From Prorocentrum cordatum (taxonomy: Eukaryota), in NCBI GenBank assembly GCA_963575745.1, contig CAUYUJ010000030.1, forward strand, positions 1 through 64,000: a DNA stretch of 64,000 nucleotides. The letters are read 5' to 3'. Positions 7,989-64,000 of the stretch are shown one piece after another. The translations under genes were made by a program, and so were the position numbers. The first letter of the stretch is position 1; each line of letters starts with the position of its first letter. The notes beneath the pieces are model-generated. The model did no database searches, was not told where the DNA came from, and worked only from the letters and a program-made list of their open reading frames with translations.

Positions 7989-8009
7989 CTTGAGCCAAAA
8001 TGGCTACGG
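7989..8009 (-). other. Perfect dinoflagellate spliced-leader sequence (21 nt)
   Basis: The + strand cttgagccaaaatggctacgg is the reverse complement of CCGTAGCCATTTTGGCTCAAG. Confidence 0.97.
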
Positions 8010-13100: not shown

Positions 13101-16100
13101 GAGAGGTGGAGCCTGGGGGTGCACGGCCATGGATCGCGGGGAGAGGGCTCCACAGGGTGGCAGCCTTCCCAATCCAGCGGGCGCATGGATGAGCGCGAGA
13201 ATGAAGCCAGTGAACATCGAACCCCCATCCCGACCTGAGACAACGCAGCCGCCCAGTGAGTGATGTCGATGCCAGCGCCAGGGAAAAGGCGCGGCAAGGC
13301 AGAAATGTCCGCGATGAACGGCGCGTCCTTAGCAGCACCGGTAAACCCCACACTGCTCGACTTTAAAGCCCCAGGAGCGGGGGCCTCGGCACCAAGAGCG
13401 GCGCCCGGTAGAGACAGCGGGCGTCGGATCTAAAGCCCCAGGAGAGTGGGCCTCAATACCGCGGTGAAACCGGCAAACATGGCCTGTCTCGGCTCGCGGG
13501 GGGCCTGGGGCCGAGCAAGATTCGTGATGGCGTAACGAACTCCTCCCTGCGGGGCCGCAACAGGCAACATCGTCAGCCGACTCCGCGCACACACGGGTGG
13601 AACTCGGACCGGCGAGCCGCGGCCAAGCGGGCCAAGGGGGTGCGTCGAAGCCGAGCGAGGGGCGCGCTGCCGGGGCGCATGCCTACCCTCGCGGCCTCTC
13701 TCGGCCCATCTACCCCGAGCGGCGGCGACAGTACAAAAGGGCGTTAGAGGCGGCCCCGAACCTCGGCCACGAGCGGGCCTCCCGACGCTGCCGGTGACTG
13801 CTTCGGGGGCCCGGGCGGCGGGGCCTCGGGCTCTCCGCCCGCCGCGGCGGCGAGGCCCGTGACAACGGCGAACCCTGGCGGACAGGGTAAACCCTGGCCG
13901 AGCCCCGAGCTGAGGTCGCGCCGAAGGCACAACCGGGTCGCCAGACCCGGGGGAGTCGCGGGCAGCGGCCGCCACCGCCGGAGCTGAGCCTGGCAAGGCC
14001 ACGGGGGGGCTCCCACACACAACGAGCGACTGCGGCGAGTCGCGGCGGCTCCAGCGGGCGCCGCCGCTCGCAGAGGCCCGCGCGCTGGCAGCACAAGCCA
14101 TCCGACTCGCGCCTGGCGGCCCCAAGGCAGAGCTTGGCTGGGACGCGGAGAAGGCACCTCCGAGCGACCGCGGCAGGTCACGAGGGCTCGCAAGATCCGC
14201 ACAGATCTCAGGAGGCCCTACGCGCGCAACAGAGGCTAGCTGGGTCGAAGAAGCCAGTCGGCCCGGAGCGGGCCCAACGCTGGCCGCCGAGGCTCGCTGG
14301 GAGCCGTCCCGAACGCGGGGACCAGACCAGGCAGGGGCGCGGACGGTTCCCCGCATGCCCCGAGCAACCGGGGCAGGTCGGGATCTGGCGCGTGCGACTG
14401 GTGCCCGGCACGCCTGCCGTAGCGGCGCTGGGAGCCGTGCGACGGGGAGTGGCAATCGCGCTGACGGAACGAACTTCCCCCTGCGGCGCCGAAACAGCCT
14501 CGCTAGAGACGCGCATTCCCACCCTCGCGACCACACTCGTCCCAGGCTCGCTTAGCAGCTGCGGCGCTGGCGCGGGCGGCCGAGGGACGAGGCAAGGTGC
14601 CTCGCGCGCCGTCCTCACAGGGGTCAGGCGGCACCGCCACGACGACGTCGCGCCAGCCTTTCCCTTGACAGGCGGCTTCGCCTTGATCTGAGCGGAGGCT
14701 GGCCTGGGCAGGGGCCCCCGAAACCGCAAGGGCGAGGGCCTCCGTAGGCGCAGCAGCTGCACCAGGAGGGTTGCCGGCGGCACGGCAGTGCTTCCCAGCG
14801 GCGGCAAGGCCTGCCCGCCGGCCGCCTCGAGAAGGTCGAGGCCCTCGACGGCATCGAAGCCTGACGGTGGCAAGGGCCTCTCCAAAGGGGCGGCCGAGGG
14901 CCGCTTGGTCCACGCGGCGACCAGCGCCGAGGGGACTGACGCGGCCCGTCCTGGGACCCGCATTGAAAACGCGGAGGCCCACGCCAGAATCCCCTACTGC
15001 GGGGGCAGATGGCGCCATCTCCCCAGAAGGGCAATGCTCCGCCTGAGCAGGCACAGCTGGAGGCGGATCCCTCGCCTCGCACGCGTCTCGAACCACGCTG
15101 CTCGGGTGAGGACGAGAGCGGAGCGAGCCCGCGGCGAAGGCCGCCGCTGCGACAGCAGGCGTAAGGGTGGCCTGGCGGGCAGCTGCAACGAAAGCCGTTC
15201 AAAAAGCCGCGGCGTCGGCGGCTGGTTTCGTCCCAACCACAGCCTCTTGGCGCGGAGGGGCAGCCGCGGACAGGGCGCCCCCCGGCCGACGGCGATATGC
15301 TGCGAGGGCTCGAATCGGCGGCAGCGGCAGCAGCTGGCTCGCCTTGAGATGGCGGTGGGGTCCACAAGAGCGGGAACGTAGCGAGTCCCGAGACTGTGGT
15401 CCACTGCGGACTCCCGTCGCTAGTCAGAGGAGCCCCAACCGCGGTAACGGGCGCGCACAGCGGGCGCGGCGTCGGCATCCGATCGCCCGCTCCCGTGCCA
15501 GCGGTACCAAGGGGCGTGCACGCTGGGCGCGGAGGCGGGATCCGCCGGAGTGGGGGTACCGGGGGACCCGAGACCCTGGCCCCTTGCTCGATGTCGGTAG
15601 GAGACAACGGCAGCCCATCGGCGGCGGCAGCTAGGCGCGGGATGACCGAAGGTGGCACGCGGTCGCCAGCCTGCAGGCCAGAGAGGCCCGGAGGCGGCCC
15701 CACCTGCCTGACGGTTGGAGAAGGCAACACACAGGCGGAATCGAACGGCACCGACCCGCTCAGCGCGCGTGGCGGGGCCGCAACGGAGGCAGCACTCCAG
15801 CCCGCGTCAGCAAACGGGTTCGCGAAGGACGGATCCTGAGGTGGGACCCACTGCCAGGCAGTAGCGTCGAGCCACTGTGGAAGCACGAGGTCAGGAAGAG
15901 GAGGAGGAGGAGGAGGAGGAAGATGAGGAGGAGAAGCGAGTGAGATGTGGGTAAAGTCCTCCTGCTCCTCCTTACTCCAGGAAATCCTTTATTTCCTGTC
16001 CCTCGAGTTCCAACCGCAATGCCCGCGGGTTGTCTTCGAACGCCGGGCGTCTCTCTGCAGGGCGGCGCGCGAGCGCTGCAGGCGGGCTGGGGCGTCTCTG

Positions 16101-16848
16101 CTTCGCGGCGGCAGAATCCCTCGACTCAGACTGCGTGAACGGCAGGAGGTTGGCGAGGGAAACTGGAGCAGGTGCGAGAGCGGAAGCGAGTGCCGAGGGG
16201 AGGTGGGAGCCTCCCCCAAACAGCGGCGCATCAACACTCCTTCCTCGGATGAAAGTCTCCGTCTCCGCCGCCCCGAGACTCGGGGGAGAAGGGCAAGGGG
16301 AGGAAGGAGGAGAGGTGCGCAGCGGCGAAAGGGAGGCAGGCGCCATCGGACGCCGAGCCTGCAGGGCGGAAGCCCGAAGCTAACGCCACGCGTGCAAACG
16401 CTGTGGCCGGCGCGGGAGGAACCCGCGAGCAGGCCAGCCGCCTGCTTGGACGGGTTGGCTGAAGTCAAGCCCGGATGACACGGGCGCGCACTGCCAGGGG
16501 GCAGCGGCGCCCGAGCGGAGAGGGTGCACTCTCGCCGCTGCCGGGTGCCCACAGGAGGTAGCCGGCCCACCCCCAGCCGAGCTCTGGCTGGCGGGGTCAA
16601 GGCGCGACCCCGAAGCAGCCAAAGCACGGAGGAAGCGATGGGACCCCTGCCTACGGCAGTGACCCAAAGAACGCTCGTAGCCCAGGAAGCAGGACACCGC
16701 CGCGTAGAAGAAGAGGGGCCTGAGCGGCGGTGGCAACCGCAAGCCCCCGGGCGCCCTGGCCGCGCGCGCGGCGGGGAAGCTGGGGGGCGAGCGGGGCAAG
16801 CTTAGGGCCGAAAGACTGTAGAAGCCGTTGAGGACGGGTCGCTGAGAA
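10105..16848 (-). mobile_element. Degenerate tyrosine-recombinase retrotransposon (DIRS/Ngaro-like): gag-like region, RT N-terminus only, YR domain; boundaries approximate
   Basis: RT-proximal segment KWDYSPEFDPTPYLSD..REVFLNP...RKWDACGAL...CGAFQAP (~12650-12380). YR-type segments AWDVEKR, PPLPRVLLRAMVALCLAWDW, RKQFARCSDRAVVRMMELVF, FRTRWVAFLSALGVP and SYLAD (~11280-10300). GGA tracts at 9970-10100 and 16850-16885 flank it. Confidence 0.68.
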
Positions 16849-16899
16849 TAAGAGGAGGAGGAAGAGGAGGAGGAGGAGGAGGAGGCACCTCCGTCGGAC

Positions 16900-17200
16900 T
16901 TCTGCTGACCTGGGTCGATGCAAACCTGGGTCAGTCAGGCTTTGCAGGATCGTGCAGGATCCTGCTAGGGCGCCACATGCGAAACCGACCCCTACCCGCC
17001 ACGATTTCAGAGGGGGAGGATGGGGTTCACTTCGCTCGGGAGTTCCCGAACGAAGTGAGCCCCACCCTCCCCCTCAGAAGTCGTGGGGGGTAGGGGTAGG
17101 GTTCGCATGTGGCCCCCTGCCTGCAGGATCCTGCACCCAGGCCCAGGTCAATGCGACCCTGGCCAGGTCAATGCACCCAAGCCCAGGATCCTGCAAGATC
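16900..17200. repeat. Long imperfect palindrome / foldback element
   Basis: 16952-17041 is the reverse complement of ~17043-17136 (gtgcaggatcctgc...gccacatgcgaa...cttcgctcggga | ttcccgaacgaag...ttcgcatgtggc...gcaggatcctgcac); outer gacctggg/cccaggtc arms extend it. Confidence 0.88.
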
Positions 17201-17264
17201 TGGCGCTCTGGCTGAGCTCCGTTTAAGTTGACCCCCGTCTCAAGGCCCCCGACCTTGGTGTAAT

Positions 17265-17449
17265 TCGGCGGCCAGCCCAGGGACAAGCGAGAGGGGGCGG
17301 GCCTTTGGAGAAGGCTCGGAAGTCCTCCGGCCTTCTGAGAAGCCTTCGAAGCCTTCCCCGAAGGCACAGGCGCGAGGGCCCTCTGAGAAGTCCCGCCGCC
17401 TCCTGAGAAGGCCTTCTCCTTCTCACTCCCCCCCCTCGCTCGCCGCCGA
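17265..17449. mobile_element. MITE family A copy (not shown to be intronic)
   Basis: TIR tcggcggccagc...gctcgccgccga; 5-bp flanks gtaat/ggaat; interior homologous to 19236-19456. Confidence 0.85.
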
Positions 17450-17645
17450 GGAATGCGGACCTCAACACATGCTCCCTGGCGATTTGTTTCGGATGCGGGG
17501 TCCTCTTCAGGGCCAGAAGCGGCGCGTGCTGTGCAGCGCGCGGGCAAGGCAACAAGAGGTGGAGACTCCGAGTTGCTCCTCGGCCGGCTCTGTCCAGAGC
17601 GAGCCGAGCTGTCCCTCTCGGCGCTGCAGAGGAAACCAGGGTAGG

Positions 17646-17806
17646 GTTAGGTCGGGCATGTCGCCATACAGGCGGATTTTGGAGGAAAAATCAAAATAGC
17701 CAAGCAATACTCAAATTTGGTCAAAACACACTCGACAAATCGTCCACATACTATTTGTTGGCTACTATTGCATATTCCTCCTGTAGAGGGACATGCCCGA
17801 CTTCAG
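17646..17806. mobile_element. MITE family C copy with 6-bp TSD
   Basis: TIR gttaggtcgggcatgtc...gacatgcccgacttcag; TSD ggtagg at 17640-17645 and 17807-17812; AT-rich interior shared with 31078-31236 and 44366-44511. Confidence 0.88.
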
Positions 17807-18274
17807 GGTAGGGGGAGGAGGCACACCGCTCTCTCTCTCTCTCTGTGTCTCTCTGCCATGGCCTGTGGCCTCGCCTCATGCCAGTGCAAGCGCACGTGCG
17901 TGCGCACGGACGGACACGTGCACCTGAACCTGTGCACGCACGTGCGCGCCATTACGCGTGTGCGTGCCAATGTGCGTGCGCATGCATATGCAAGTACGCA
18001 TTGTACGTTCAGGCATTACTTCCTCGTCACACATCGTTTCCAGACCGAGCGCAACTTCCTGTGAATAATGGCGGGTCGGAGACGGCCGAAGGAAGCTACC
18101 CCCAAGCCCAAAAGGTAGCAGGCAGGGAAACGAAACACGGCCGATTCCTGCTGTGAATGTCTGCCTATCGATTCCAGCCTGGGAGATCAGAGGAGCGACA
18201 GCGCTGCCTAATTATCGGAGCAGCCCGTCTGCCTCGACGGCAACCTGCAAGTGAGATGTGTCCGTTCGACGCAG

Positions 18275-20270
18275 TCACGGCACGTGCCCGCCCACTGCCA
18301 ATAATGCGGGCAGGAGCAGCGCGAAGGCGGTGCACCGGAGAGCTCCAGCACCGTCGGCCATCAGGAACCAATTGTCCGCCCAGTCCAGATACTGCTCTCG
18401 CAGGTCCCAGTGCGTCGGCTCCCTTTGGTAGTGCTTCGGGTTCGGGTGGTAGACGGTGCCGCCGTTGAACACAGCGGCAGCCCACCCGAGGCTGCTGAAG
18501 CTCGTGACCAGCACGTCGGCCCGCGCCATGCAGAGGAGCGCCTCGCGGGGGTTGTTGTTGACCACGAAGTGCACCTCCTGGAGCACACTGTCGCAGGGCG
18601 CGGGGGGCTCGAGCCTGCCGGTCGCGTGGAAGCGTGGCGCGTCCGCGTCACCGGCTGCCGGCGGGAAGGCGAAGCCGGACAGGTTGCTCTGCCGGAGGGC
18701 CTCGCGGGACAGGCCCCGTGCCTCGGTGTACACGTGCACCGCCAGCCGGCGGCCGCGCCCCGGCAGGCCGCACAGCCAGCGCGCGAAGGAGCCCTTGTTG
18801 CTGGAGCAACAAAAGAAGGCACGGGCACCACCCTTCGGAGCTCCGCGCGCACTGCCTGGAGCGGCGCTGGGCCCGCCTCCCTGGCGCGCCGAGCGCGTCC
18901 ACGGGGCGGGTGCTGGAGGCGCTGCCCAAAGGGGGTGCAGCGCAGATCCGAGAAGTCCGCGCGGAGCTCCGAAAGTGTATGTCGATGCGATGTTTTCTTC
19001 CTCGAGGCTCATCTGCTGGGTGACGGCATACATCGAAGAGTCCCCCACGTCCCCGCGCCGAACGTGCACGGCGGCGTGCAGCAAGTCATCTGGCCCGCCA
19101 AAGCCGCAACGTGCCTCGCGCCGGCCCGCCAGCTGGCGCAGCGGGGCCGAGAAGGCGCGCGCGCTCTCGAACAGCCGTTGCCGGGCGGCTTTGGAGACGC
19201 CCTCGCGCGCGACAAAGTTCCAGACGAGGCCCTCTTCGGCGGCGAGCCTGGGGGGGAAGTGAGAGGGAGCGAGCCTTCTCAGCAGCTAAGCTCGAAAGTT
19301 CCCTGGCCTTCTGAGAAGTTTCCTGTAAGCCTTCCCCGAAGACACCGAACCCGAAGACACCGAACACTTCTCGGGAGGCGCGGGGCCCTCTGGGAAGCCC
19401 CGCCGCCTTCTGAGAAGGCCTTCGCCATCTCCCTTCCCCCCCTCGCTCGCCGCCGACCTCTGGAAGCTGCCCGCCCTTGGCCTTGAACTGGAAGCAGCGG
19501 AGCGGGGAACCACCCGCGCCCGCCGGGCCGGGAGGCGCCCGCCCACCCGGCGCGCCCCACAGCAGCACGCGCCCCTCCGGCCGCGGGCTCTGGCCCAGCA
19601 GGTCGGCCTGCAGCTCGAAGCGCCAGCAGATCAGCGGATAAAGCTGCCCGCCTGGGTCGCCCGGCGCGCCCGCGGGGCTCTCGTGGCACCACACTGCGCC
19701 GTGCTCCCACTCCGCCAGGTGCACCGCGCTTCCAGCAGGCGGCAGCGCCAGGGCTACCGCGAAGAAGCCCATCTGCAGCGCTGCAGCGACCACCTCTATC
19801 GCCTTCTTGAAGCGCGCGCCCAAGCCGTCATTGATACCATCTACGTGCACTAGCAGCGGCTGCGGGCCAGTGGCGCTTAACTCACGCAAGCGCGTCCGCA
19901 GCGAGTCGGCAGCAGTGGCTGACTCCGGGAACGGCAGCACCTCGACCGCCCCTACACACCGGTGCGAAGCGAACCTCTCCACCCACTCAGGGGCTTTGAT
20001 GCTGCCGGCGTGCAGGCCGTCCCTACCGACCTTCTCGAAGGCCGCCATAACATCCCCGGTTCGCACGAGATCTGCACCCGACGACGCATTCAGGTGGCTG
20101 AGGCAGTCAGCGTCCGTGAAGAGGCAGTCCGCGAACCGCGCCAGCACGGCGTCCTCCGGAGCATCCGCTTCGCATTCACTGGAGCCGTCCTCTGGAGCCA
20201 CCACGCCGCTGGGCCGCGCCCGCGACCATGCCACCAACGCTAGGGCGGACCACGGCAAGGCGCGGGGCAT
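18275..20270 (-). CDS. Fucosyltransferase-like glycosyltransferase (GT11/GT23-type motif), ~520 aa; exons 20270-19458, 19231-19001, 18793-18275
   Basis: N-terminal hydrophobic segment (MPRALPWSALALVAWS), NDGLGARF, AVHVRRGD (GDP-fucose-binding motif I), VHVYTE and MARADVLVTSFSSLGWAAAV. All three exons are 3n and join in phase 0 at AG|G junctions. Confidence 0.8.
18794..19000 (-). mobile_element. MITE family B forming putative intron 2 (GA-AG, 207 nt, in frame)
   Basis: Internal inverted repeat TTCGGAGCTCCGCGCG/CGCGCGGAGCTCCGAA; homology to 2203-2360 and 47746-47980; AG|GA donor and AAG|G acceptor. Confidence 0.7.
19232..19457 (-). mobile_element. Introner-like MITE (family A) forming the whole of intron 1
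   Basis: Element 19236-19456 with TIR TCGGCGGCGAGC..GGGGGGAAG / CTTCCCCCC..GCTCGCCGCCGA; perfect TSD AGAGG (+ cctct at 19231-19235 and 19457-19461); donor GAG|GT, acceptor AG|G. Confidence 0.88.
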
Positions 20271-20307
20271 CGGGGCGACGCCACGCCGCAAAGCGAGAGA
20301 GCCACGC

Positions 20308-20330
20308 GCTCAAGATGGTATGAGCCAAAT
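20308..20330 (-). other. Possible degenerate tandem SL relic upstream of the glycosyltransferase
   Basis: ATTTGGCTCATA-CCATCTTGAGC compared with TTTTGGCTCAAG-CCATTTTGGCTC, ~40 nt before the ATG. Confidence 0.45.
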
Positions 20331-20719
20331 CTCATTGCACTGGCCTTGCAGACGTGCTGCCGCGGATTTCTGCGTGGATTGTTTGCCCGAAGCGGCGAGC
20401 GAAAAAAGAAATGAATTTCGCGTGGATTCTTTTTGGTCTTCATTCCTGGCCAAAAGAAACCGCACGAAATTCACCTCGAAATCCGGAACGAAATTCTCCA
20501 GGACACTCCGGCCCGACCCTATCGTTTTCCGAACGAAATCCGCTCTGCTATGTTACAATGTTGGCGCCATGACCAGTCTGCAGCTGCCACGTGAATTTCC
20601 CAAGCTGGGCGGCCCAAGCGATGTCAACTTCTGCTGTTTGCGCTCGCCACGTGAACGGCGGAAGGTGGTGGCCAGGGGGCGTGCCCAGGGCTCCTCCCAG
20701 CAGGTTCTTGGAATTCCTA

Positions 20720-20915
20720 GGGGAGGAGGAGGAGGAGGAGGAGGAGGAGGAGGAGGAGGAGGAGGAGGAGGAGGAGGAGGAGGAGGAGGGGGAGAAGGAG
20801 GGGGAGGAAGAGGAGGAGGGGGAGAAGGAGGAGGAGGAGGGAGGAGGAGGAGGAGGAGGAGGAGGAGGGGAGGCGGAAGAGGGGGAGGAGGAGGAGAAGG
20901 AGGAGGAGGAGGAGG
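20720..20915. repeat. (GGA)n microsatellite
   Basis: Direct inspection. Confidence 0.95.
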
Positions 20916-21725
20916 ACCAGCTTCGGCGGATCTCTTGATGTAACGGCCTCTTCTGTTTTCCCTTGGCCCAGAAACACCGATGCGCAAAACCACAATGAGG
21001 GCATTGGTGTGTTCTCGTCTTTCTCTGTTGCCTCCAAGAAGGCCCCCGAAAAGGCGAGGCGTTCTGCCATCACCCGTCCCTTCTCAACAGACTCCCAAAA
21101 TTATCTAAGAGGCCCACCAGACGGCCCAAGAGGCCCTCAAGATGCCCTCGCCAGGCCTCCAAGAGGGTACCATACTGTCAACGAGACCACTTGGACAGGT
21201 TGGAAATGCTAAGCATTTTAAAGTGATGTCTCCAGACAGTGGTTTCCAAGCGTTACGCACAAAACAAGGAGACCCTGGACAATCAAACGCGCCCCTCTCA
21301 CCAGGAAGCCCATTGCTGAGAAGCGGCAGTAGCAGCTAAACACCAACCTATGGCGCGCATGCCCTTCTCTGACAACCGCCATTCACTTGCGACTATCCTT
21401 GTCTACAGTAGCCTTTCTTTTTTTCTTTCAGTACAGGCACGATGCGTCGAGCAAGCAGCCAGAGATAAAGAGTTTACAGTACTGCCCGCTGCAAGGGAAA
21501 ACTTGCGCGCCAGCTAACTCATTCCAACCCGAATGCCGTGAATAAGTATCCGATCGCCCACTCCAGCGCTAACGCGTCTACCAAGAAAACGAGTCCATTC
21601 TTCCGAAACATATGCCGGTACGATGCAGAAATCCCCGTCCAGGATGCGCATATGTAGACATCCTACCTGCGGCATCTCGCCCTCCACACAGAGCTCCGTC
21701 AACGCACAGCCGCAGGTTGGGTTGG

Positions 21726-44200: not shown

Positions 44201-47200
44201 ACGAGCACCGTGGCGGCGTCGTTGTCCCAATGCCTCCGCAGGGAGCCGTCGCGCTCTGCGTGCGCATCGGCGCTGTCCTCGGCTGCACGCAATGCCGACC
44301 CTGGGCAAGAGGAGGCGACGTCTGGTGCGCGACCTGCCGATCGCCACATGCGGTGCGACATCAGCGTTATGTCGGGAACGTCCCTCTACAGGAGGAATAT
44401 CAAAAAATAGTCAAAAATAGTCGGTCGACGTTTGACTAGTTTCGAATACTTTTGGGGTATCTTTGATCTTTCGTCCAAAATCCCCCTGTAGGAAGACACG
44501 CCCGACCTAACATCAGCAGCCTGCGTGCCTGGGCTTGGACCCCGCGCGACTCCCGGAAACCGCGCGCCAACATCCTCTCCGGCGAAGACTCGCTCCTGCG
44601 TGCGACCTGTGTCCCCTGAGATCCGACGTAGCGAAACAAGCGCAATATCGCGAAAAATCACGGCCAGAGCCACAGTCCCCATCTTGGGCGGCACTCGTCG
44701 AACCGCAGCAAGCTGTGAGTCCTGGGCCCGCAGCCAAAAGAAGAGTTCCCGGGTGAAAATACTGCAGCGCCCGGACCTCACGTTCCTGCTCGGACTCCAG
44801 GAGGACCACCTGGGGAAACAAAAGGGTACCGATACCGCTTCTCCCCGGACCTCTCCTGGGGTGCCTTCTGACCGGAACCTCGAGGCGAATCCAGCGGTGG
44901 CGACGACGGCCTCCCAGGAGGCCCAAAAAGGGGAAAACGGGCGGAGGGTAGCGGCATGGGTTGTGATGCTCTCACATCCCTGAAATAATTTCGAGCACCC
45001 AGAAGAATATCGAAGCAGTGTCGAACGAGTATCGCCTCCCAGGGCCCCACATATGAAAACCCTCCAGATTCGGTACTTTCTTGGTGCTCGCAATTCTTTC
45101 TGGCGGTCAAGGCTGAAGTCAGTCAGAACATCATAAGGCATGGGTGCCTCTTCCTCCCCTGGCCACCTGCGCCGGGGTGGCCGCCCACACGTGCGCTGGA
45201 GGCTCCGGCAGCTCGCGCATGGCGAAGGTGATGTGCTCGTCCTGCAGCCGCTCGCGCGGCCCCAGCGGCGGGCATCGGGGCGAGCCGCCCGCGCTCGGGG
45301 CTGCCGCGCGGTGGCCGGCTGCACACCCCTGCAAGGGAAGCCCGACGGTGCCGGTATCGCTCCGGTGGGGCTGCTGAAGTACAGTCGGGCTTGATTGGAC
45401 AGGACGAGCGACAGGACACAAGACCCTTCCAAGGGCCACATTGCCATAGGAATGTAGGAGGCATGGTTCGCGAGATACAGGGCACAAGGGTACTCTTGAT
45501 TTGGGAGGGTCGACTTACTAATCTGGGCCGCCTGTAGGGAACGGTGCAGTCAACCCGTGATTAGAACAAGGACGCACGAGAAGGATGCAAGGGCCTTGGA
45601 AGACCATGCTGGCGCTCTGCAAGCGGGGCGCGGCCAGCGAAGGCGGCCAAGTATGGCCCGGAAGGGAAGGATGCAAAGGTGACCATGGAAAGTTGCTCAT
45701 CCTTACTATGCGGATTGACTGTAGGGAACGATAGGTAAGGAACGAAACCTCCTTTTGCAAAGTCGAAGCGTCAAATCCGAAGGGACGGCCGAGCCCCCTT
45801 CCTAGCGGCGTCCCGCCACGATTTGCAATCGTGATTGGAACCCACCACGAGTGCTAAAACTGAAGGAACACTGGAGGAGTTCGCCACAAACAAGACAATT
45901 GGACGCATGCAAACCTCAGGAACCACCGAGCCCCGGACCTTATTTCAACGAACTGACTGTGCTCCCCGAACCTCTCACGGATGCGCCCTGGCGAGCATCT
46001 CGGAGCGAACCCAGCGGTGGCGGCGAGGGCCTCCCAGGAAGCCCTGGAGGGGGAGAATCGGGTCGGGCGAAAGGGGGGGATAGCAAAGGGGGGGTTTGAG
46101 AATCAGCTCGCGTAGCTGATTTTCCCGGCGCCTCCCGGCGCCGGAGGCGCCCATGTATCGAGGAATGGGCCCCTCGGTGAGGCCGAAATCAGCTGCATGC
46201 AGCAAATTTCGTAACCCCCCCTTTCCCAATCCCCCCCTTTCCCCCGGCCCGAGAGAAGGAGGCATGGGCAGCGGTATTGGTGCCGTCTCTTCCTCTGGCC
46301 TGCTCCGCCAGGGCGTCGCCCAGGCACGAGCCCGTTCCCGGGTCCGCTCCTCCGGGTGCTGCTTCGCCTCCTCCTGTGCCTGCACCTCTGCATCCGCCAG
46401 CCGCGCCTGCTGGGCCAGGCGCTGCACCTGCCAGAAGAGAGGGGCATCAGTTGGCGCACCGTCGGAGGTTCCCTGCGATGAGAAACCTTCGAGGCAGACA
46501 GCTGGTCACCAGTTCGCGCCCACACGGATCATGCTGAGGGGCCCTGCGCTCCTCACAAGAGAAGCTCCCCCAACGGCACGTTCACTTGCCGCTCGGGGAA
46601 CCATTGGGTGAAGATCCTCGAGCTCCTCCCTCCTCCCCCCTGTTCCTCGCGCTGTCCCCAGCGACTCCCCAGCTCGGCACGGCGCTGTCGCCCAGTCGCT
46701 GGCCGCACTCCCCGCTCGGAACTGTGATTTGCATCGGAGATGGCCACACTCCCGACTCAGATGGATGCTCTCGCCACCGCGAGGGCCACATTGCCAGCTG
46801 AGCACTGTGCTATCGCCTCAGAGGCGGCCGAAGTTACTGTTTTGCCCATCGAGAGAGGGAAATACTGATAGAGAGAGAGAGAGACGTTAAGTGGCATATA
46901 AACATATGGGCGTGTACATGTATGTATGGATGGAGGGATATATATATATATATACATATATATAGAGAGAGAAACACATAGACGGAGAGAGAGAGAGAGA
47001 AAAAAAAAGAGAAAGACAGAGAGAGAGAGAGAGAGATAAACATCACAAAGGCAGATATCACTTACGGGAAACTACGGAGAAGCACGGCGTCCGAGAAGAA
47101 GGCTACGCACATATAAATAAGCATGGACTGATATAAAGACAGTCGGTGACGGCAACAGGCTGAAATTGGGTACACACCGGATGTGGAAAAAAGATACGAA

Positions 47201-57559: not shown

Positions 57560-59905
57560 TACCGTCAAGGACGTGCAGTCGCCAGTGGGTACAACGAAGC
57601 ATGCGGTCACGCAGAGGCTCGCCCCACAACCCGGCCATAGCTAGCACGGGCAGCACCTTTGGCTATGTGGTGGGATCGCCCCTGGCGCTGGGCGTCGCGC
57701 CTGAAAGCTCTGTCAACCAGACCGAGACGCGCCGCTCCGTCTGGCGGCAGGCGCGGCGAGTGCTTGAGCACCCAGAGCCTGCAGCGGGGCCGACGTCGGT
57801 CGGACAAGTGCGCAAGGTAGCGGAGCCGCTGCTGCAAGTCTGTGTGACAGCAGGGGCAGACTGCTGACGGCACATACTCGCGAAGAATTCGGCGGCCCAA
57901 CGGGCCAGAGGCGTGCTAAGATCTCCGGTAACTGCTAAATAATACTTCTACTTCGCGCGCGCGGGGCGGCCCCTGGGGGTCCCCGGACGAAAAGTACCCC
58001 GGGCGATCCCTGGCAGGGTCGGATCAGAGATGATTTTCCTCCTGGGCGCCGCCCCCGTGGCCTTCCAGAGAGCCCCAAGAAGGGCCGCCAAGAGCCCTCC
58101 AAGATGGTTCAAGAGTGCTCCGAGATGCCACACGATCGTTCCAAGACGGCCAAGATGGCCCCCAGACGCCCCAAGAGGCCTCCAAGAGCACTCCCCAGAG
58201 TGCCCCAAGAGGCACAAATTATTACTTTTCCTTCGATTTTGGCCACATTTTGGCGTGTCCATCTTTTCGGCTTCCCGACGCCCCAAGACGGCGCAAGAGG
58301 CCCCCAAGATCGCCCCAAGAGGGCCCAAGAAGGTCCCAAGAAGGCCCCAAGATGGCCCAAGAGGGCTCCAAGACGGCCCCAGAGGCATCCAAGACGGCCC
58401 AAGAGGGGGCTCAGAGGGGCCCCAGAGGGCCCCAAGCGATGCCCCAAAGGGGGAACACAAAACAAAATTTCGAGCCCTCGGTCTTAGGCCTCAAGAGGCC
58501 CCTGAGAGGCCCCAAAAGGCCCCAAGAGGCCCTCAGGAGGCCCCCAAGCGACGCTGAAGAGGCCCCCCAGCGGCCCCAGGAGGCTCAGTCATGCGAAATG
58601 GGCCGGCGGAATGAGCGAAGCGATTGAATAATCCGTTTCTGGTGTTTGATGCGCGCGCGCATGCGTCGTCTCTAACGCACGCGTTGTAGCAAAAGCGCGA
58701 TTGCAGTCCAGACATGCATACGGAACGGCCCGTCATAAACAACTGCAACCTGGCTGTCGCAGATGGAGCCAAGGAAAAATACAATATCAAGCATGGCGTG
58801 CCACTCGTGGGCATGCAGCATGCGGTCGTGCCAAAAGCGGGGAGACTCGAGGAGACTAGGCCAATCCGCCTTGTGAACGGTAGCTTTGACCTTGTTGACA
58901 TCTTGGATAAGCAGCTTCACCCAAGGAAGACATTCGAGGTTTGGGTCGACGCGCAAATGAAGGAGAGCTAACAGGACTTCTGACCGATCGCGGCACACTC
59001 GGGCGGCGAACGCCAGCCGCCGTCGCAGGAGGAGGCAATCCAGGCTTGGTTGCTGGGGTTGCTCATGAACTTGCTGGTCCGTTATGTTGCAAGCGCTGCT
59101 GAAACGAGGCACGCCGGCAATACGACGAAGGTCCCTCATGTAGCAACCGTTCATCGCTTTCGAGTCCCAGCCAGTCGGGATGAGCGTGTGGACTGCGAAC
59201 TCGAGGCGGCTCAGCACGAGGGATATTAAGTAAACGAGCTTGTCGACGACGTTGAGGACGGCCGAACCGAACGTCTTGAAGGCCAGCGGAGAGTACCAAC
59301 GCCGACGACACGCGGTGCCTGGTGTTGGCGAACGTGCCGCCACTGCCAGTGGCGCGCACATAGGAACCCAAGTCCTTGCATGCCCGCACAACTAGAAGCC
59401 ATACGTCGGATCGGCAAGGCACGGGAATGGCAGGCTGCCCATCGTCGCGGCGGCGATGAAGACGAGCGGCAGCGACCTCTATCATTGAGGATGAACTCGC
59501 TCTTGCTGGGGTCCCAATTTAGTTCCAAGTGCAGGCTGACGAAAAGCTCGATCAAGACGTCCAATAAGATATCGATGGACTCTTCCAGCTCTGATGGCGT
59601 ATCCGCAATGATAACGCGGACTTCAGAGCAGCGACTTCGTCTCCAGAGGGCGGGTCGGAGACGTCCCAAAATGTGGCCACGGGAACTCTCACCGCAAGGT
59701 CGAGGCCGCCCTCGGCGCAGACGTAGTGCAGTAGGGACAGGGCCACACCATAGTGCGAATGGAACGTAATGGGCCCCAACCTGCACCCTGCCGACCCCCA
59801 GTTTGGGTGGTGACCGGAAGGCCGTCGAGGCCTACGGAGCACCAGGCGCCGTCGTGCAACGACTCGCCACTGCGCCTCTGGGCACGGAATGGGCGTGCCC
59901 TCAAG
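57560..59905 (-). mobile_element. 5'-truncated degenerate LINE (RT C-terminal half + zinc-finger-like tail), interrupted by CCAAGA repeat
   Basis: TGGRQG/CRLGPITF, ELNWDPSKSEFIL, KDLGSY, YMRDLRRIAG, RRLAF and VCPCCHTDLQQRLRYLAHL; (TATC)n-like tail at ~57505-57560. Confidence 0.8.
57925..58640 (+). repeat. CCAAGA(G/C/T)GGC composite repeat inserted in the LINE
   Basis: ~11-bp ccaagacggcc-type units. Confidence 0.88.
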
Positions 59906-59939
59906 TCCTCTTCCTCATCCTCTAAGCCTCAATCCTCAC

Positions 59940-60650
59940 TCCCCGGACCCCAGATTCACAGATCCCCTGGGGGCTTGTCGCGGTTTTCCGCGGCTTGTCG
60001 CATGACTTGTTTGGAGCCCAAGAGGGCTCCAAGATGGGCCAAGAGAGCTCCGAGAGGCCCCCCAGGTGGTCCCAGAGCGCTCCGCGTCGCCAAAAGATCA
60101 CTCCAAGATGCCGAAGACGACCCCGAAACAGCGCAAGAGGCCTTCAAGACATCCCCAGAGGCCTACAAGAGGCCTCCGAGAGGGCTTCAAGAAGCAGAAT
60201 TCATCGATTGTCCGTAGTTGCTTGAAGGGTTTCAGCGTTCGCGCCTTTTGGCTTCCCGACGCTCCAAGACGGCCCAAGAGGCCCCCAAGACTGCCCCAAG
60301 ACGGCCCAGGCGGCCCCCAAGACGGCCCCAAGACGGCCCAAGAGGGCCCCAAGAGGGCCCCAAGAGGACCCAAGAGGCGCCCAAGACAGCCCAAGAGGGC
60401 CCCAAAACGGCCTGAAGATGGGCACAAGAGGGGGGTCACGAACCGAAAATTCTAGCTGTCTCAAGAGACGCCCCAGGAGGCCCCAAGAGGCGCCCAAGAG
60501 GCCTTCAGAGGCCCCCATGAGGCCCCCAAGAGACACCAAAAAGCCCCACGAGGCCCGAAAGAGGCCCCAAGAGATCCCTGAGAGGCCTCACACGCGATCC
60601 CAAACAACATCCACGAGCCCTCTGTCGTCGTCGTCGACGTCGACGTCGAT

Positions 60651-60706
<56 letters not shown>

Positions 60707-63700
60707 TCAACCTCCTTCTCCTCCTCCTCCTCCTCCTCCTCCTCCTCCTCCTCCTCTCCTCCTCCTCCTCCTCCTCCTCCTCCTCCTCCCCGTCAATTGA
60801 GGCATGTAGATCGGTGGCACGGTGGCGGGATGGGCCGAAGGCAATTATATCCGCCGCCCCCTGTCGATTCATCGCAGGGGTGCCTGGCGTGCCAAAGTAT
60901 TACTGTTTGGGTGTTGGTTCTTTTTCTTAAAAAACTCCCCCCGGGGCTTCGGCCCGTCCCGCCGGGGTCCCGGGAGGATTGCCCGGACCCGGTTGCAAAG
61001 GATTTCTCCTGCCCCAGACGCCTCCAAGATGGCCACGTTGGCCAAAGATGGCCTCCAAGTTCGCCCAAGATGGCCTCCAAGACGACCCCGGAGAGGAGGA
61101 GATGCCTCCAAGTCCGCCCAAGAAACCTCCAAGACGGCCCAAGACGGCCCAAGAGGTGCCCAAGAGGCCTCCAAGACGGCCCAAGAGGCCTCCAAAAGGT
61201 CCTCCAGGAGGGCCCGAAGAGGCCAACATCGTTGATTTCCTTAGGCGTTTGAAGGATTTTCGCATTCGCTTCTTCTCGGCTTTCCGACGACCCGAGACGG
61301 CCCAAGATGCCCCCAAGATCGCCCCCACAGCGCCCAAGAGGCCTCCAAGATGGCCTCAGGACTGCCCAAGAGGCCCCCAAGACGGCACCAAGAAGGCAAA
61401 AAGACGACCCAAGACACCTCCAAGACGCCCAAGATGGCCTCTAAGACGGCCCTGGAGCACCCCAAGAGGCCCCAGGTCGGCCCAGAAACGCCCCCCAAAC
61501 GGCTTCCGACGGCGTCAGACGGGCCAGGAGCCCACCAAGATGGCCGAAGTTGGCTCGAAGCTGGCCCAAGGCGGCCCAAGAGGCCTCCAAGAGGGCTTCC
61601 AGGAAGGCCAGACAAAAAACAAAAACACTGATTTGCCATGAGTTTTGAAGGATTGTGGCATTTGCTTGTCTTCGGACTTCCGACGGCCCGAGACGGCCCA
61701 AGTGCCCCCAAAGATCGCCCAAGAGGCCCAAGACGGCCCCAAAGGCCCCAAAGACAGCCGAAGAGACCTCCAAGACGCTCAAGATGGCCTCCAAGACGGC
61801 CCAAGAGCCCTCCAAGACGTCCTCCAAGAAGGCCCGAAAGGGTCCAAATGGCCTCCAGGCGGCCAAGATGATCTTCAAGATGCCCACGTGTTGCCCGAAG
61901 GCTTTCCAAACCGATTCGAGGAACACATGGTCCGATAGCTTGGCAGATCTGGCCTCAACGTTCGGCCACGTAAGCGCTTCCAAAAAGGCAGGGGGCGGCG
62001 GTGATTCGCCGTAGGCGTCTTCGATCCGCCGCCCCCTGTTGGCTTGCCACAGGGGTGCCTGGCGAATTAAATCCTTTCGGTTTGGGTTTTGTTTTTTCTA
62101 CAAAAACTCCCTCTGGGGCTTTGGCCCAGCCCGCCGGGGTCCCGGAAGGGTTCGCCAGACTGCTCGAGAGGTGGTTCCAACAAGTTGTTCCTGCTCCAGA
62201 TGGCTCCAAGATGGCCTCCAGGATGGCCAAGATGGCACCAGATGGCCTCCAAGTTCGCCCAAGATGGTCCAAGATGGCCTCCAAGACGGCCCAAGAGAGT
62301 CAAAGATGCCTCCAAGTTCGCACAAGAAACCTCAAAGACGGCCCAAGACGCCCCCAAAGGTCTCCAAGAGGTTTCCAAGACGGCCCAAGAGGCCACAAAA
62401 AAGTCCTCCACGAGAGCCCGAAGAGACCAAAATCATTTATGTTTTCCTTAGGTGTTTGAAGGAATCTGGCATTTGCTATTCTCCAGCCTTCCGACGACCC
62501 AAGACGGCTCAAGAGGACCCCAAGATCGACCCAAGGTCGCCCAAGAGGCCTCCAAGATGTCCCCATGCGGCCCAAGAGGCTCCCGAGACGGCTCCAAGAG
62601 GCCCGAGACGGCTCATCGCAGGGGTGCCTGGCGTGCTGGATCCTTTCGCTCTTGGTTTTGGTTCTTTTCCCAAAAGAACTCTCCCTGGGGCTTCGGCCCG
62701 TCCCGCCGGCCACCCGAAAGGGACCTCGCAAAACATCCTCCAAGACGGCCTACGATGGCCTCCAAGACGGCCAAGATGGCCCAGCATGGCCTCCAAGATG
62801 CCTCCAAGACTGCCAAGATGGCCTCCAAGACAGCGAAGATGGTCCCAAGATGCACCCAAGACGGCCCCAGATGGCCTCAAGATGGTCTAAGACGGCCCAA
62901 AAGGCCCAGAAGAGGCCTCCAAGACGGCCCAAGAGCGCTCCAAGGCGTCCACCAGAAGGCCCGAAAGGGCCACAATCATTGATGTTCCTTGGGTGTTTGA
63001 AGGATGTTGGCATGTTCTTCTTATCAGCTCTCCGACGGCCCAAGACGGCCCAAGAGGCCCCCAAGACGGCCCCAAGAAGAGCCCAAGACGGATCAAGATG
63101 ACCCCGAAGACGTCGAAGATGGCCTCCAAGACGGCCCAGCATGGCCTCCAAAATGCCTCCAAGACGGCCAAGAAGGCCTCCAAGACAGCGAAGATGGCCC
63201 CAAGATGCACCCAAGACGGCCCCAAATGGCGTCAAAATGGCCTTAGACTGCCCAGAAGGCCCGCAAGAGGCCTCCAAGACGGCCCAAGAGCCCTCCAAAA
63301 CGTCCTCCAAGAAGGCCCGGAAAGCTCGGAAACCACCTGGTCCGATAGCTCGCCCGACTCCGTGTTCACCGAAGGCTTTCGAAACCCACTCGGGAAACGC
63401 GTGGCCCGATAGCTTGGCCAAGCTCAAAAACAACGTTCAGCCACGCAGGCGCTTCCAAAAAGGCAGGAGGCGGCGGTGATTCGCCGTATGCGTCTTCGAT
63501 CCGCCGCCCTCTGTTGATTCATCACAGGGATGCCTGGCGTGCTGGGTCCTTTCGCTTTTGGATTTGGTTCTTTTCCAAAAAGAACTCTCCCTGGGGCTTC
63601 GGCCCGTCCCGCCGGCCACCCGAAAGGGACCTCAACGACTGCAAAACATCCTCCAAGACGGCTCAAGATGGCCTCTAAGATGGTCACGTTGGCCCAAGAT

Positions 63701-64000
63701 GGCCTCCAAGATGGCCTCCAAGTCGCCAAAGATGGTCCGAGATGGCTTCCAAGACGGCTCGAGAGAGTCAAAGATGCCTTCAAGTTCTTCCAAGAAGCCT
63801 CCAAGACGGCCCAAGATGGCTCCAAGATGGCCTAAGACTGGCCAAGAGGCCCCCAAGAGGCCTCCAAGACGTCCTCCAGGAAGGCCCGAAAAGGCAAAAA
63901 TCATTGATTGTCCTTACGTGTTTGAAGGATGTTGGCATGTTCTTCTTATCAGCTCTCCGACGGCCCAAGACGGCCCAAGAGGCCCCCAACATCATCCCAA
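59940..64000 (+). repeat. Higher-order CCAAGA satellite / composite repeat array
   Basis: 11-bp units punctuated by conserved modules (ggtgcctggcg...aactccc..ggggctt.ggccc..ccgccgg at ~60875, 62050, 62615 and 63520; gtttgaagga.t...ccgacg; terminal ggcggtgattcgccgta). Smaller pieces lie at ~21030-21165 and ~50705-50915. Confidence 0.92.

What the first reader, a model, noticed from the sequence alone, without database searches (positions are those of the whole stretch)
19231..19461. Clear Introner-type intron: a MITE whose 5-bp TSD (AGAGG) supplies both splice sites, with a sibling copy 2 kb away
Seen: CC[AGAG|G]TCGGCGGCGAGC...GCTCGCCGCCGA[AGAG|G]GC. The last G of the TSD plus the first T of the TIR make the GT donor, and the second TSD gives the AG acceptor. 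Splicing 19457-19232 removes the element plus one TSD with no scar (LPE|GLVWNF) and is required to bring the HVRRGD motif into frame. A homologous copy at 17265-17449 has the same TIR and 5-bp flanks (gtaat/ggaat) lacking AG|G, showing the unit is a mobile element. Established: TSD co-option is the Introner mechanism described in algae such as Micromonas and Aureococcus. This particular family may be uncharacterised.
Basis: partly seen in the sequence, partly recalled or inferred. Interest (0 to 1): 0.8.

Follow-up and report, generated by a model that had tools for sequence, protein, structure and literature searches.

The report
Transposon-made intron in dinoflagellate gene
A 221-base miniature transposon sitting inside a gene of a red-tide dinoflagellate is cut out of the message exactly as an intron, using splice signals made from the 5-base duplication created when it inserted; this is a clean, RNA-supported example of a mechanism already described in dinoflagellates.

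Summary
Window 19236-19456 is a 221-bp palindromic MITE. It has a perfect 12-bp TIR and a perfect 5-bp flanking repeat (AGAGG on the gene strand).

Transcript contigs from 3 of 4 public runs, one of them a polyA RNA library, join 19458 directly to 19231. That removes the element plus one repeat copy (226 nt, GT..AG, phase 0). The resulting 519-aa reading frame aligns with 7 dinoflagellate homologues, with no gap at the junction itself.

The unit is mobile. A sibling lies at 17265-17449 with different flanks. Two more copies turned up in metagenome contigs. One has a perfect AGGTC duplication, where both splice sites would come from the duplication in a different register.

The window is very probably Prorocentrum cordatum. 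"Introner elements" have already been reported there in 2.4% of introns. The same logic (5-nt TSD, NNAGG plus the first element base) is published for Polarella glacialis class 12. I therefore rate this a new member of a known kind, of moderate interest.

Genome-wide copy number, an autonomous partner and intron absence in orthologues could not be tested.

The parts
19236..19456 (.). Element A: 221-bp palindromic MITE-like element (the body of the intron)
   Evidence: RNA fold of the intron gives -133.8 kcal/mol, z -6.06 against 200 shuffles.
19236..19247 (.). Left terminal inverted repeat TCGGCGGCGAGC. On the gene strand it is the 3' arm, GCTCGCCGCCGA.
19445..19456 (.). Right terminal inverted repeat. 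On the gene strand it is the 5' arm, and its first T is the T of the GT donor.
19457..19461 (-). Upstream (gene-sense) copy of the 5-bp target-site duplication AGAGG. Its last G (19457) is the G of the GT donor; AGAG stays in exon 1.
19231..19235 (-). Downstream (gene-sense) copy of AGAGG. AGAG (19235-19232) ends the intron and supplies the AG acceptor; G (19231) is the first base of exon 2.
19232..19457 (-). Intron 1 as spliced: 226 nt, GT..AG, phase 0, equal to the element plus one TSD copy
   Evidence: Joint 19230->19457, skips 226, CT..AC at cut +1, in X1, X5 and X18.
19458..20360 (-). Exon upstream of intron 1 (ATG at 20270; transcript contig reaches 20360)
19009..19231 (-). Middle exon, containing the HVRRGD motif
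18799..19008 (-). Intron 2: 210 nt, also a long imperfect palindrome. Boundaries as assembled are GC..CA (1-nt ambiguity).
   Evidence: Joint in 4 of 4 runs. Arms of 74 nt are 70% complementary. Fold z is -5.26.
18046..18798 (-). Last exon (stop codon 18275-18277) plus 3' UTR
17265..17449 (.). Copy B of the same family: 185 bp, flanks GTAAT/GGAAT (4 of 5). It has no splice-competent register and lies about 600 nt beyond the end of the transcript contigs.

Best explanation
A non-autonomous DNA transposon (MITE) with TCGGCGGCGAGC termini inserted into the coding sequence ...CCA GAG GGC... (P-E-G). The host is a dinoflagellate gene, very probably from Prorocentrum cordatum, that probably encodes a GT-B fucosyltransferase-like enzyme. 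Insertion duplicated the 5 bp AGAGG.

In the pre-mRNA, the last G of the upstream duplicate plus the first T of the element form the GT donor. The AG at positions 3-4 of the downstream duplicate, followed by G, forms the AG|G acceptor. The spliceosome therefore removes the element plus one duplicate (226 nt) without a scar, and the gene still encodes its protein.

Shown here: the anatomy, the mobility of the unit, and the exact junction in RNA-derived contigs.

Inferred: the near-perfect hairpin places donor and acceptor side by side at the base of a 12-bp stem. It also leaves an internal C-tract+AG|G, 16 nt upstream, in a 2-nt internal loop between helices. This may explain why the distal, duplication-derived AG is the one used. 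Because the element is almost its own reverse complement, either orientation offers a 5' T and a 3' C-rich tract. Any insertion into NNAGG (or AGGHN, as in locus L058) can then become an intron at once.
For: Anatomy.

Splicing: contigs of 2007 nt (X1; 0 other letters over its three laid pieces, 1,879 nt), 1850 nt (X5) and 946 nt (X18, polyA metatranscriptome) join 19230->19457. They have 222, 222 and 31 letters on the shorter side. The same contigs also skip intron 2. Within the 5-nt ambiguity, only the register with 4 TSD letters in exon 1 gives G[TCA]..AG (read).

Coding sense: the spliced ORF is 519 aa. The junction falls after residue 271 in phase 0, between E and G. None of 7 homologues has a gap at the junction, and 5 of 7 have E|G there. 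The deposited 419-aa protein P0010 has the same junction.

Mobility:
- Copy B is in the window.
- L058 is a 200-bp copy with a perfect GACCT/GACCT flank. On its minus strand, AG|GTC...AG|GTC joins two open frames in phase 0.
- L064 is 94.5% identical to L058.
- Loose ends of transcript contigs start or stop exactly at the TIR termini (19235 before; 17449 and 17452 behind). Their flanks read CCTTG (= CAAGG on the other strand) and GGAGG.

A second, non-alignable MITE at 46058-46252 shares the TCGG terminus, a subterminal G7 run and a perfect 5-bp flank GAGAA. This fits a 5-bp-TSD transposase.

Hairpin: MFE -133.8 kcal/mol, z -6.06. Stem positions 3-13/211-221 have P(unpaired) 0.00 and positions 2/222 have 0.13; the donor G and the last four bases are at 1.0.
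Against: - Only 4 full copies were found: 2 in 64 kb, and 2 of 72 metagenome loci, the other 70 being chance matches.
- Only one copy is proven to be spliced. L058's intron status rests on ORF continuity alone, because the only database protein is the contig's own read-through ORF.
- L064 has no matching flanks (2 of 5), and copy B's match 4 of 5.
- Copies are 83-87% identical to A, so the family is not obviously young.
- X1 and X5 are of unknown library kind. X6 has no contig across the junction, although contigs stop at 19165 and start at 19458. X18 bridges with only 31 letters.
- Contigs cannot show minor isoforms or intron retention.
- No DNA run was laid, so a DNA copy lacking the element is not formally excluded.
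- The 128 letters at the 5' end of the X1 contig beyond 20360 were not found anywhere in the window (first 30 letters, up to 2 mismatches). The contig is therefore chimeric, spans a very long intron, or comes from a near-identical paralogue.
- No autonomous partner is in the window.
Confidence: 0.88

Rival explanations
1. The joined form is not a splicing product. The mRNA comes from an allele or paralogue that never received the element (an empty site) or from a processed retrocopy, and the window's copy is a disrupted, silent gene.
For: No DNA run was laid. The first 30 of the 128 letters at the 5' end of the X1 contig beyond 20360 match nothing in the window. From recall, dinoflagellate genomes are rich in duplicated and retroposed genes, and a relic spliced leader lies at 7989-8009.
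Against: The same contigs also skip intron 2. Intron 2 has no flanking duplication and only 1 nt of ambiguity, so its absence cannot be an empty transposon site. The X1 contig has 0 differences over its three laid pieces (1,879 nt), UTRs included. The boundaries are GT..AG|G in phase 0. The deposited gene model, built with transcript mapping (PMC10666404, methods passage seen), places the same intron at this locus. A retrocopy would itself derive from a spliced message.
Confidence: 0.06
2. An older, ordinary intron existed here and the MITE later landed inside it. The element did not create the intron.
For: MITEs often sit in introns. A similar verdict was reached for a different palindromic intron elsewhere in this scan (not tested here).
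Against: The intron equals the element plus one 5-bp duplicate to the base (226 = 221 + 5). No other intronic sequence is left, and both splice dinucleotides lie in or straddle the duplication.
Confidence: 0.03
3. The palindrome and 5-nt repeat are a chance or locally generated hairpin in an ordinary intron, not a mobile element.
For: GC-rich dinoflagellate introns often carry short repeated boundaries (mentioned in PMC7789003, passages seen).
Against: Three other copies at unrelated flanks have similarity ending at the TIR termini. 1 site is found against 0.01 expected.
Confidence: 0.02

Closest known systems
Introner-like element class 12 of Polarella glacialis (Roy et al., bioRxiv 10.1101/2020.10.14.339549; parts 1-2 of the text read)
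   Same: It has a 5-nt TSD. [quoted passage not shown] Other registers take both sites from the TSD; here L058 has AGGTC.
   Different: The first element base here is T (GT donor), not C (GC donor). The second register seen here is AGGHN rather than NAGGH. The species differs.
P. glacialis classes 13/14 (same preprint): both splice sites recruited from a 4-nt AGGH TSD
   Same: The element contributes no splice dinucleotide, or at most one base. The host AGG proto-splice site does the work.
   Different: The TSD is 4 nt there and 5 nt here.
Introner elements (IE) of Prorocentrum cordatum as counted by Dougan et al. 2023 (PMC10666404; passages and supplement passages seen), following Farhat et al. 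2021 (PMC7789003, passages seen)
   Same: The operational definition is met: inverted repeats of 8-20 nt and direct repeats of 3-5 nt within 30 nt of the intron ends. Those papers report IEs in 2.4% of P. cordatum introns.
   Different: Those papers count patterns only. In the passages I saw, they describe no families, no TSD co-option register and no non-intronic siblings.
Introners of Aureococcus anophagefferens and Micromonas pusilla (Huff et al. 2016; not read, known to me from recall and from its citation in the Roy preprint)
   Same: DNA-transposon insertion creates an intron by co-opting the TSD as a splice site.
   Different: There, one splice site is carried by the element (as summarised). 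Here the element supplies only the T of GT, or nothing in L058.

Membership tests
Introner / introner-like element (intron-generating transposon) | The sequence is removed from mRNA as a spliceosomal intron | tested here: met
   The joint 19230->19457 is in contigs of 3 of 4 runs, one a polyA RNA library. GT..AG|G, phase 0.
Introner / introner-like element (intron-generating transposon) | The intron corresponds exactly to the inserted element plus TSD, so excision is scarless | tested here: met
   226 nt skipped = 221-bp element + 5-bp duplicate. No homologue has a gap at the junction.
Introner / introner-like element (intron-generating transposon) | Transposon hallmarks: terminal inverted repeats and target-site duplication | tested here: met
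   12/12 TIR and 5/5 TSD in A; 5/5 TSD in L058; 4/5 in B; 2/5 in L064.
Introner / introner-like element (intron-generating transposon) | A family of similar copies forming introns in many unrelated genes | tested here: inconclusive
   There are 4 full copies: 1 proven intron, 1 inferred intron (L058), and 2 not splice-competent. There are also TIR-delimited loose ends in transcript contigs. No genome is held, so no genome-wide count is possible.
Introner / introner-like element (intron-generating transposon) | Intron absent at the same position in orthologues or paralogues (recent gain) | not testable with these tools
   Only proteins of other dinoflagellates were available, not their genomic DNA.
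Introner element sensu Farhat 2021 / Dougan 2023 | Inverted repeat of 8-20 nt and direct repeat of 3-5 nt within 30 nt of each intron end | tested here: met
   12-nt IR starting 1 nt inside the intron; 5-nt DR overlapping both boundaries. The definition is quoted.
Polarella glacialis ILE class 12 | 5-nt TSD with the 3' splice site inside the TSD | tested here: met
Polarella glacialis ILE class 12 | Element begins with C, giving predominantly GC donors | tested here: not met
   The element begins with T, and the donor is GT.
Polarella glacialis ILE class 12 | Sequence similarity to class 12 members | not testable with these tools
   The class 12 sequences are in a bioRxiv supplement that is closed, and the journal version is not held.
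GT-B fucosyltransferase-like enzymes (host gene) | Sequence or fold match to fucosyltransferase families | tested here: inconclusive
   No Pfam or PDB sequence match. The AlphaFold model of homologue P0003 has mean pLDDT 59.5. Its best Foldseek hits are all fucosyltransferases (AtFUT1, FUT8, NodZ, POFUT1) but weak, with E about 1e-3 and TM 0.2-0.39. An ESM Atlas lead points to Glyco_transf_11, score 0.94 with 169 shared features. The H-V-R-R-G-D motif resembling fucosyltransferase motif I is from recall.

The most novel reading that the evidence does not exclude
This would be an undescribed Prorocentrum Introner family whose element carries no splice dinucleotide of its own. It makes introns in at least two registers of a 5-bp duplication (NNAGG, with G+T across the boundary; AGGHN, with both sites inside the duplication). 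Its near-perfect hairpin, rather than the nearest polypyrimidine+AGG signal, decides which AG is used: the internal C7-AG|G 16 nt upstream is skipped in favour of the AG at the foot of the stem. If this is general, splice-site choice in these introns is structure-defined. The strong exonic G after dinoflagellate acceptors would then be the footprint of such insertions.
Probability: 0.3. Interest if true: 0.5.

Novelty: new member of a known kind. Interest (0 to 1): 0.3.

Why it matters
It gives a base-exact, RNA-supported example of how a transposon insertion becomes an intron at once in a bloom-forming dinoflagellate. It shows an intronic copy, a non-intronic sibling and a copy using another splice register, side by side. 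That helps explain intron gain and the unusual AG|G splice consensus in dinoflagellates. It does not change the current picture, because introner elements in this species and this co-option logic in Polarella are already in print. A practical by-product is that the deposited gene model for this locus is wrong downstream of the second intron, and the transcript contigs give a 519-aa product instead of 419 aa.

Tried and rejected
- **Own genome:** none is held, so there is no genome-wide census.
- **Earlier notes of this scan:** nothing. One search gave 8 introner notes from other genomes, none bearing on this locus.
- **Metagenome pattern scan:** 72 loci. By blastn, 70 match only the ~21-nt seed or little more, the longest being a 46-nt match in L019. 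I set these aside as chance hits in GC-rich DNA without inspecting them individually.
- **Viral contigs:** 0 matches.
- **Read-through peptide of the element against longer proteins:** 0 hits at E<=0.01. This is weak evidence only.
- **L058 upstream exon against 1.84 billion representatives:** the only hit is the contig's own read-through ORF, so there is no outside test of the L058 junction.
- **First 30 letters of the 128-letter 5' piece of the X1 contig, searched in the window:** 0 matches. Its origin is unexplained.
- **Host gene, Pfam and PDB sequence searches:** nothing significant.
- **TIR words with one mismatch at 14279 and 47674:** no partner arm, so I rejected them as chance.
- **X6:** it has no contig across junction 1. 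Parts of the stretch without contig cover (16000-16900, 20600-21335) are not used as evidence.
- **Papers:** the search for "introner" + "Prorocentrum" found 7 papers, 6 listed. Gozashti et al. 2025 (PMC12130899) has 0 occurrences of Prorocentrum in the main text and in the 11 of 14 supplementary files that could be searched. The journal version of Roy et al. 2023 is not held.
- **Considered and rejected:** use of the CCCCAG|G acceptor near 19248 (no such joint is listed), and an intron older than the element (the intron has no sequence beyond element plus TSD).

Full report
**What is in the sequence.**
On the + strand the window reads CCTCT (19231-19235), then TCGGCGGCGAGC (19236-19247), and at the far end GCTCGCCGCCGA (19445-19456) followed by CCTCT (19457-19461).

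- The arms extend to 50 nt at 82% complementarity.
- The 226-nt RNA folds end to end into one long hairpin: -133.8 kcal/mol, z -6.06, and 0 of 200 shuffles fold as well.
- The TIR word with at most 1 mismatch occurs 6 times in the window against 1.49 expected.
- A perfect terminal inverted repeat of 12 nt or more, flanked by a perfect 5-nt direct repeat, occurs once in the window. That site is this one, against a mean of 0.01 in 100 simulated windows.

The sibling at 17265-17449 is real. It shows 83% mean column identity and 83.7% over ungapped columns with a 30-nt indel region. Its flanks are GTAAT/GGAAT. blastn finds no other copy in the 64 kb.

**Whose DNA and which gene.**
No genome is held for the window. 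The minus-strand ORFs around the element have only dinoflagellate relatives (13 hits). One is a 419-aa "unnamed protein product" of Prorocentrum cordatum that is identical to the window's translation.

Composition is 50-71% G+C across 2-kb windows, mostly about 58-70%. There are abundant trinucleotide microsatellites and a relic spliced-leader-like word at 7989-8009 (the identity of that word is from recall). All of this fits a dinoflagellate nuclear genome.

The protein family has no Pfam or PDB sequence match. A low-confidence model of homologue P0003 (pLDDT 59.5) hits only fucosyltransferases at the top of a Foldseek search, weakly (E about 1e-3, TM 0.2-0.39). The ESM Atlas gives a Glyco_transf_11 lead. 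I read the host as a probable GT-B fucosyltransferase-like enzyme, with low confidence.

**Is it spliced?**
One search for sequencing runs gave 20 runs from 9 studies holding part of 17000-21000. I laid 4 runs from 4 studies on 16000-21500. All are Logan contigs.

- Two joints were listed.
- The first runs from 19230 to 19457 and skips 226 nt, with ends CT..AC at cut +1 (= GT..AG on the minus strand). It is present in X1 (a 2007-nt contig with 0 other letters over its three laid pieces, 1,879 nt), X5 (1850 nt) and X18 (946 nt, a polyA metatranscriptome, with 31 letters on the short side).
- X6 has no bridging contig, but it has contigs ending at 19165 and starting at 19458.
- The 5-nt ambiguity is the TSD itself. 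Of the six possible registers, only the one leaving AGAG in exon 1 gives G[TCA]..AG.
- No joint to the CCCCAG|G site near 19248 is listed.
- The second joint, 18798 to 19009 (210 nt), is in 4 of 4 runs.

Joining the three covered pieces gives a 519-aa ORF starting at 20270. Junction 1 is in phase 0 after residue 271, between E and G. None of 7 homologues has a gap at the junction and 5 of 7 read E|G. A one-residue gap column lies one residue upstream in 6 of 7, in a variable stretch. Because 226 is not a multiple of 3, the HVRRGD motif is out of frame unless the element is removed.

**Is it mobile?**
One metagenome scan with the terminal 21-mer pattern returned 72 loci. By blastn, 70 match only the ~21-nt seed or little more, the longest being a 46-nt match in L019, and 2 are full-length copies.

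- **L058.** Its copy (422-621, 200 bp) has a perfect GACCT/GACCT flank. On the minus strand this reads CCCAG|GTC-TCGG...CCGA-AG|GTCGAC. A 205-nt excision (element + 5) joins two open frames in phase 0...SLDAENFAQ|VDMTDVGPVTPGM.... Both splice dinucleotides would then come from the duplication. This is inferred. The only database relative of that ORF is the contig's own read-through gene call.
- **L064.** It is 94.5% identical to L058 but has non-matching flanks, 2 of 5.
- **Loose ends.** Transcript contigs from other loci match the window only up to the TIR termini (loose ends at 19235, 17449 and 17452). Their flanks are CCTTG (CAAGG on the other strand) and GGAGG, both of the NNAGG type. One pair has poor agreement (CATGC). 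Forty-one further loose ends were not shown.
- **A second family.** An unalignable MITE at 46058-46252 has the same TCGG terminus, a subterminal G7 run and a perfect 5-bp flank GAGAA. It has no splice-competent register.

Together these support a 5-bp-TSD transposon group. Some of its insertions become introns and others do not, depending on the target pentamer.

**How it most likely works.**
Shown: the insertion site was CCA GAG GGC. The intron equals the element plus one duplicate. The donor is the G of the TSD plus the T of the TIR, and the acceptor is the AG of the TSD followed by G.

Inferred:
- The 12-bp terminal stem (P unpaired 0.00-0.13) brings the two sites together.
- The internal C7-AG|G lies in a 2-nt internal loop between two helices. 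The used AG lies just outside the stem, which may explain the site choice.
- The element is nearly its own reverse complement, so either orientation would offer a 5' T and a 3' C-rich tract. Both intronic copies seen (A and L058) happen to be in the same orientation, so orientation independence is untested.

**What counts against it, or is missing.**
- Few copies were found.
- Only one copy has proven splicing.
- X1 and X5 are of unknown library kind.
- Contigs hide rare isoforms.
- No DNA run was laid.
- The first 30 of the 128 letters at the 5' end of the X1 contig beyond 20360 match nothing in the window.
- Copies differ by 13-17% from A.
- There is no autonomous partner.
- Orthologue intron positions are not testable here.

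**Comparison with what is known.**
Dougan et al. 2023 (PMC10666404; passages and supplement passages seen) report introner elements in 2.4% of P. cordatum introns. They define these only by an 8-20-nt inverted repeat plus a 3-5-nt direct repeat near the intron ends. This intron meets that definition.

Roy et al. (preprint 10.1101/2020.10.14.339549; text parts 1-2 read) describe class 12 in Polarella glacialis. It has a 5-nt TSD and registers NAGGH or NNAGG, the latter using the terminal G plus the first element base, C. They also describe classes 13/14, where both sites come from AGGH. The present element works like class 12 but begins with T. Its relatedness to class 12 cannot be tested here.

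I found no family-level description for Prorocentrum. The search for "introner" + "Prorocentrum" found 7 papers. Gozashti et al. [quoted passage not shown] Supplements I could not see (bioRxiv, and 3 PNAS files) might contain it.

**Verdict.**
This is a new member of a known kind, with interest 0.3.

Noticed in passing
window 18799-19008 (minus strand): The gene's second intron (210 nt) is skipped in 4 of 4 runs. As assembled, its boundaries are GC..CA (or AG..GC), not ..AG. It is also a long imperfect palindrome: 74-nt arms at 70% complementarity ending at 18801 and 19006, fold z -5.26. If base 18800 were G on the gene strand, it would be an ordinary GA..AG|GA intron of the Symbiodinium-like type (arms ending at the 3' splice site, 4-nt GHNN repeat). 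Either the assembly or strain differs at one base, or a non-AG acceptor is used.
   Followed up: partly
window 18275-20270 (minus strand): The deposited P. cordatum protein (P0010, 419 aa) reads through intron 2 and then shifts frame. The transcript contigs give a 519-aa product that aligns with homologues to its end. The published pipeline accepted only GT/GC/GA donors, which may explain the miss.
   Followed up: yes
window 17647-17805: Another MITE-like element: 31-nt arms at 81% complementarity (17651-17681 / 17771-17801), flanked by the direct repeat GGGTAGGG (up to CAGGGTAGGG). Its right arm has very high depth in transcript contigs (869 in X1), and loose ends stop at 17805-17807.
   Followed up: partly
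window 46058-46252: A 195-bp MITE-like element with a perfect 5-bp flank GAGAA, a TCGG terminus and a subterminal G7 run. It has the same architecture as element A but is a different family, and it has no splice-competent register on either strand.
   Followed up: partly
window 7989-8009: A single exact 21-nt word that is the reverse complement of the dinoflagellate spliced leader as I recall it. It lies next to a long (GGA)n array and may be the relic of a retroposed, trans-spliced message on the minus strand.
   Followed up: no
window 20361 onward; X1 contig: The 2007-nt X1 transcript contig continues 128 letters beyond 20360, and the first 30 of them match nothing in the window. The window has CG, not AG, just upstream of 20360 on the gene strand. 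The contig may be chimeric, there may be a very distant 5' exon, or the source may be a near-identical paralogue.
   Followed up: partly
window 58000-64000: Dense arrays of an imperfect repeat with 10-11-nt and 21-nt periods, of the form CCAAGA[CG]GGCC (families D15-D19). They are unexplained.
   Followed up: no
window 16950-17200 and 2228-2334: Nested palindromic stretches flagged by the TIR+flank scan. Short transcript-contig pieces map to 17046-17164.
   Followed up: no
L064 82-280: A copy 94.5% identical to L058 from the same metagenome set, but with non-matching flanks AGAGA/GTTGA. The duplication may have decayed, or the contig may be rearranged or chimeric.
   Followed up: no
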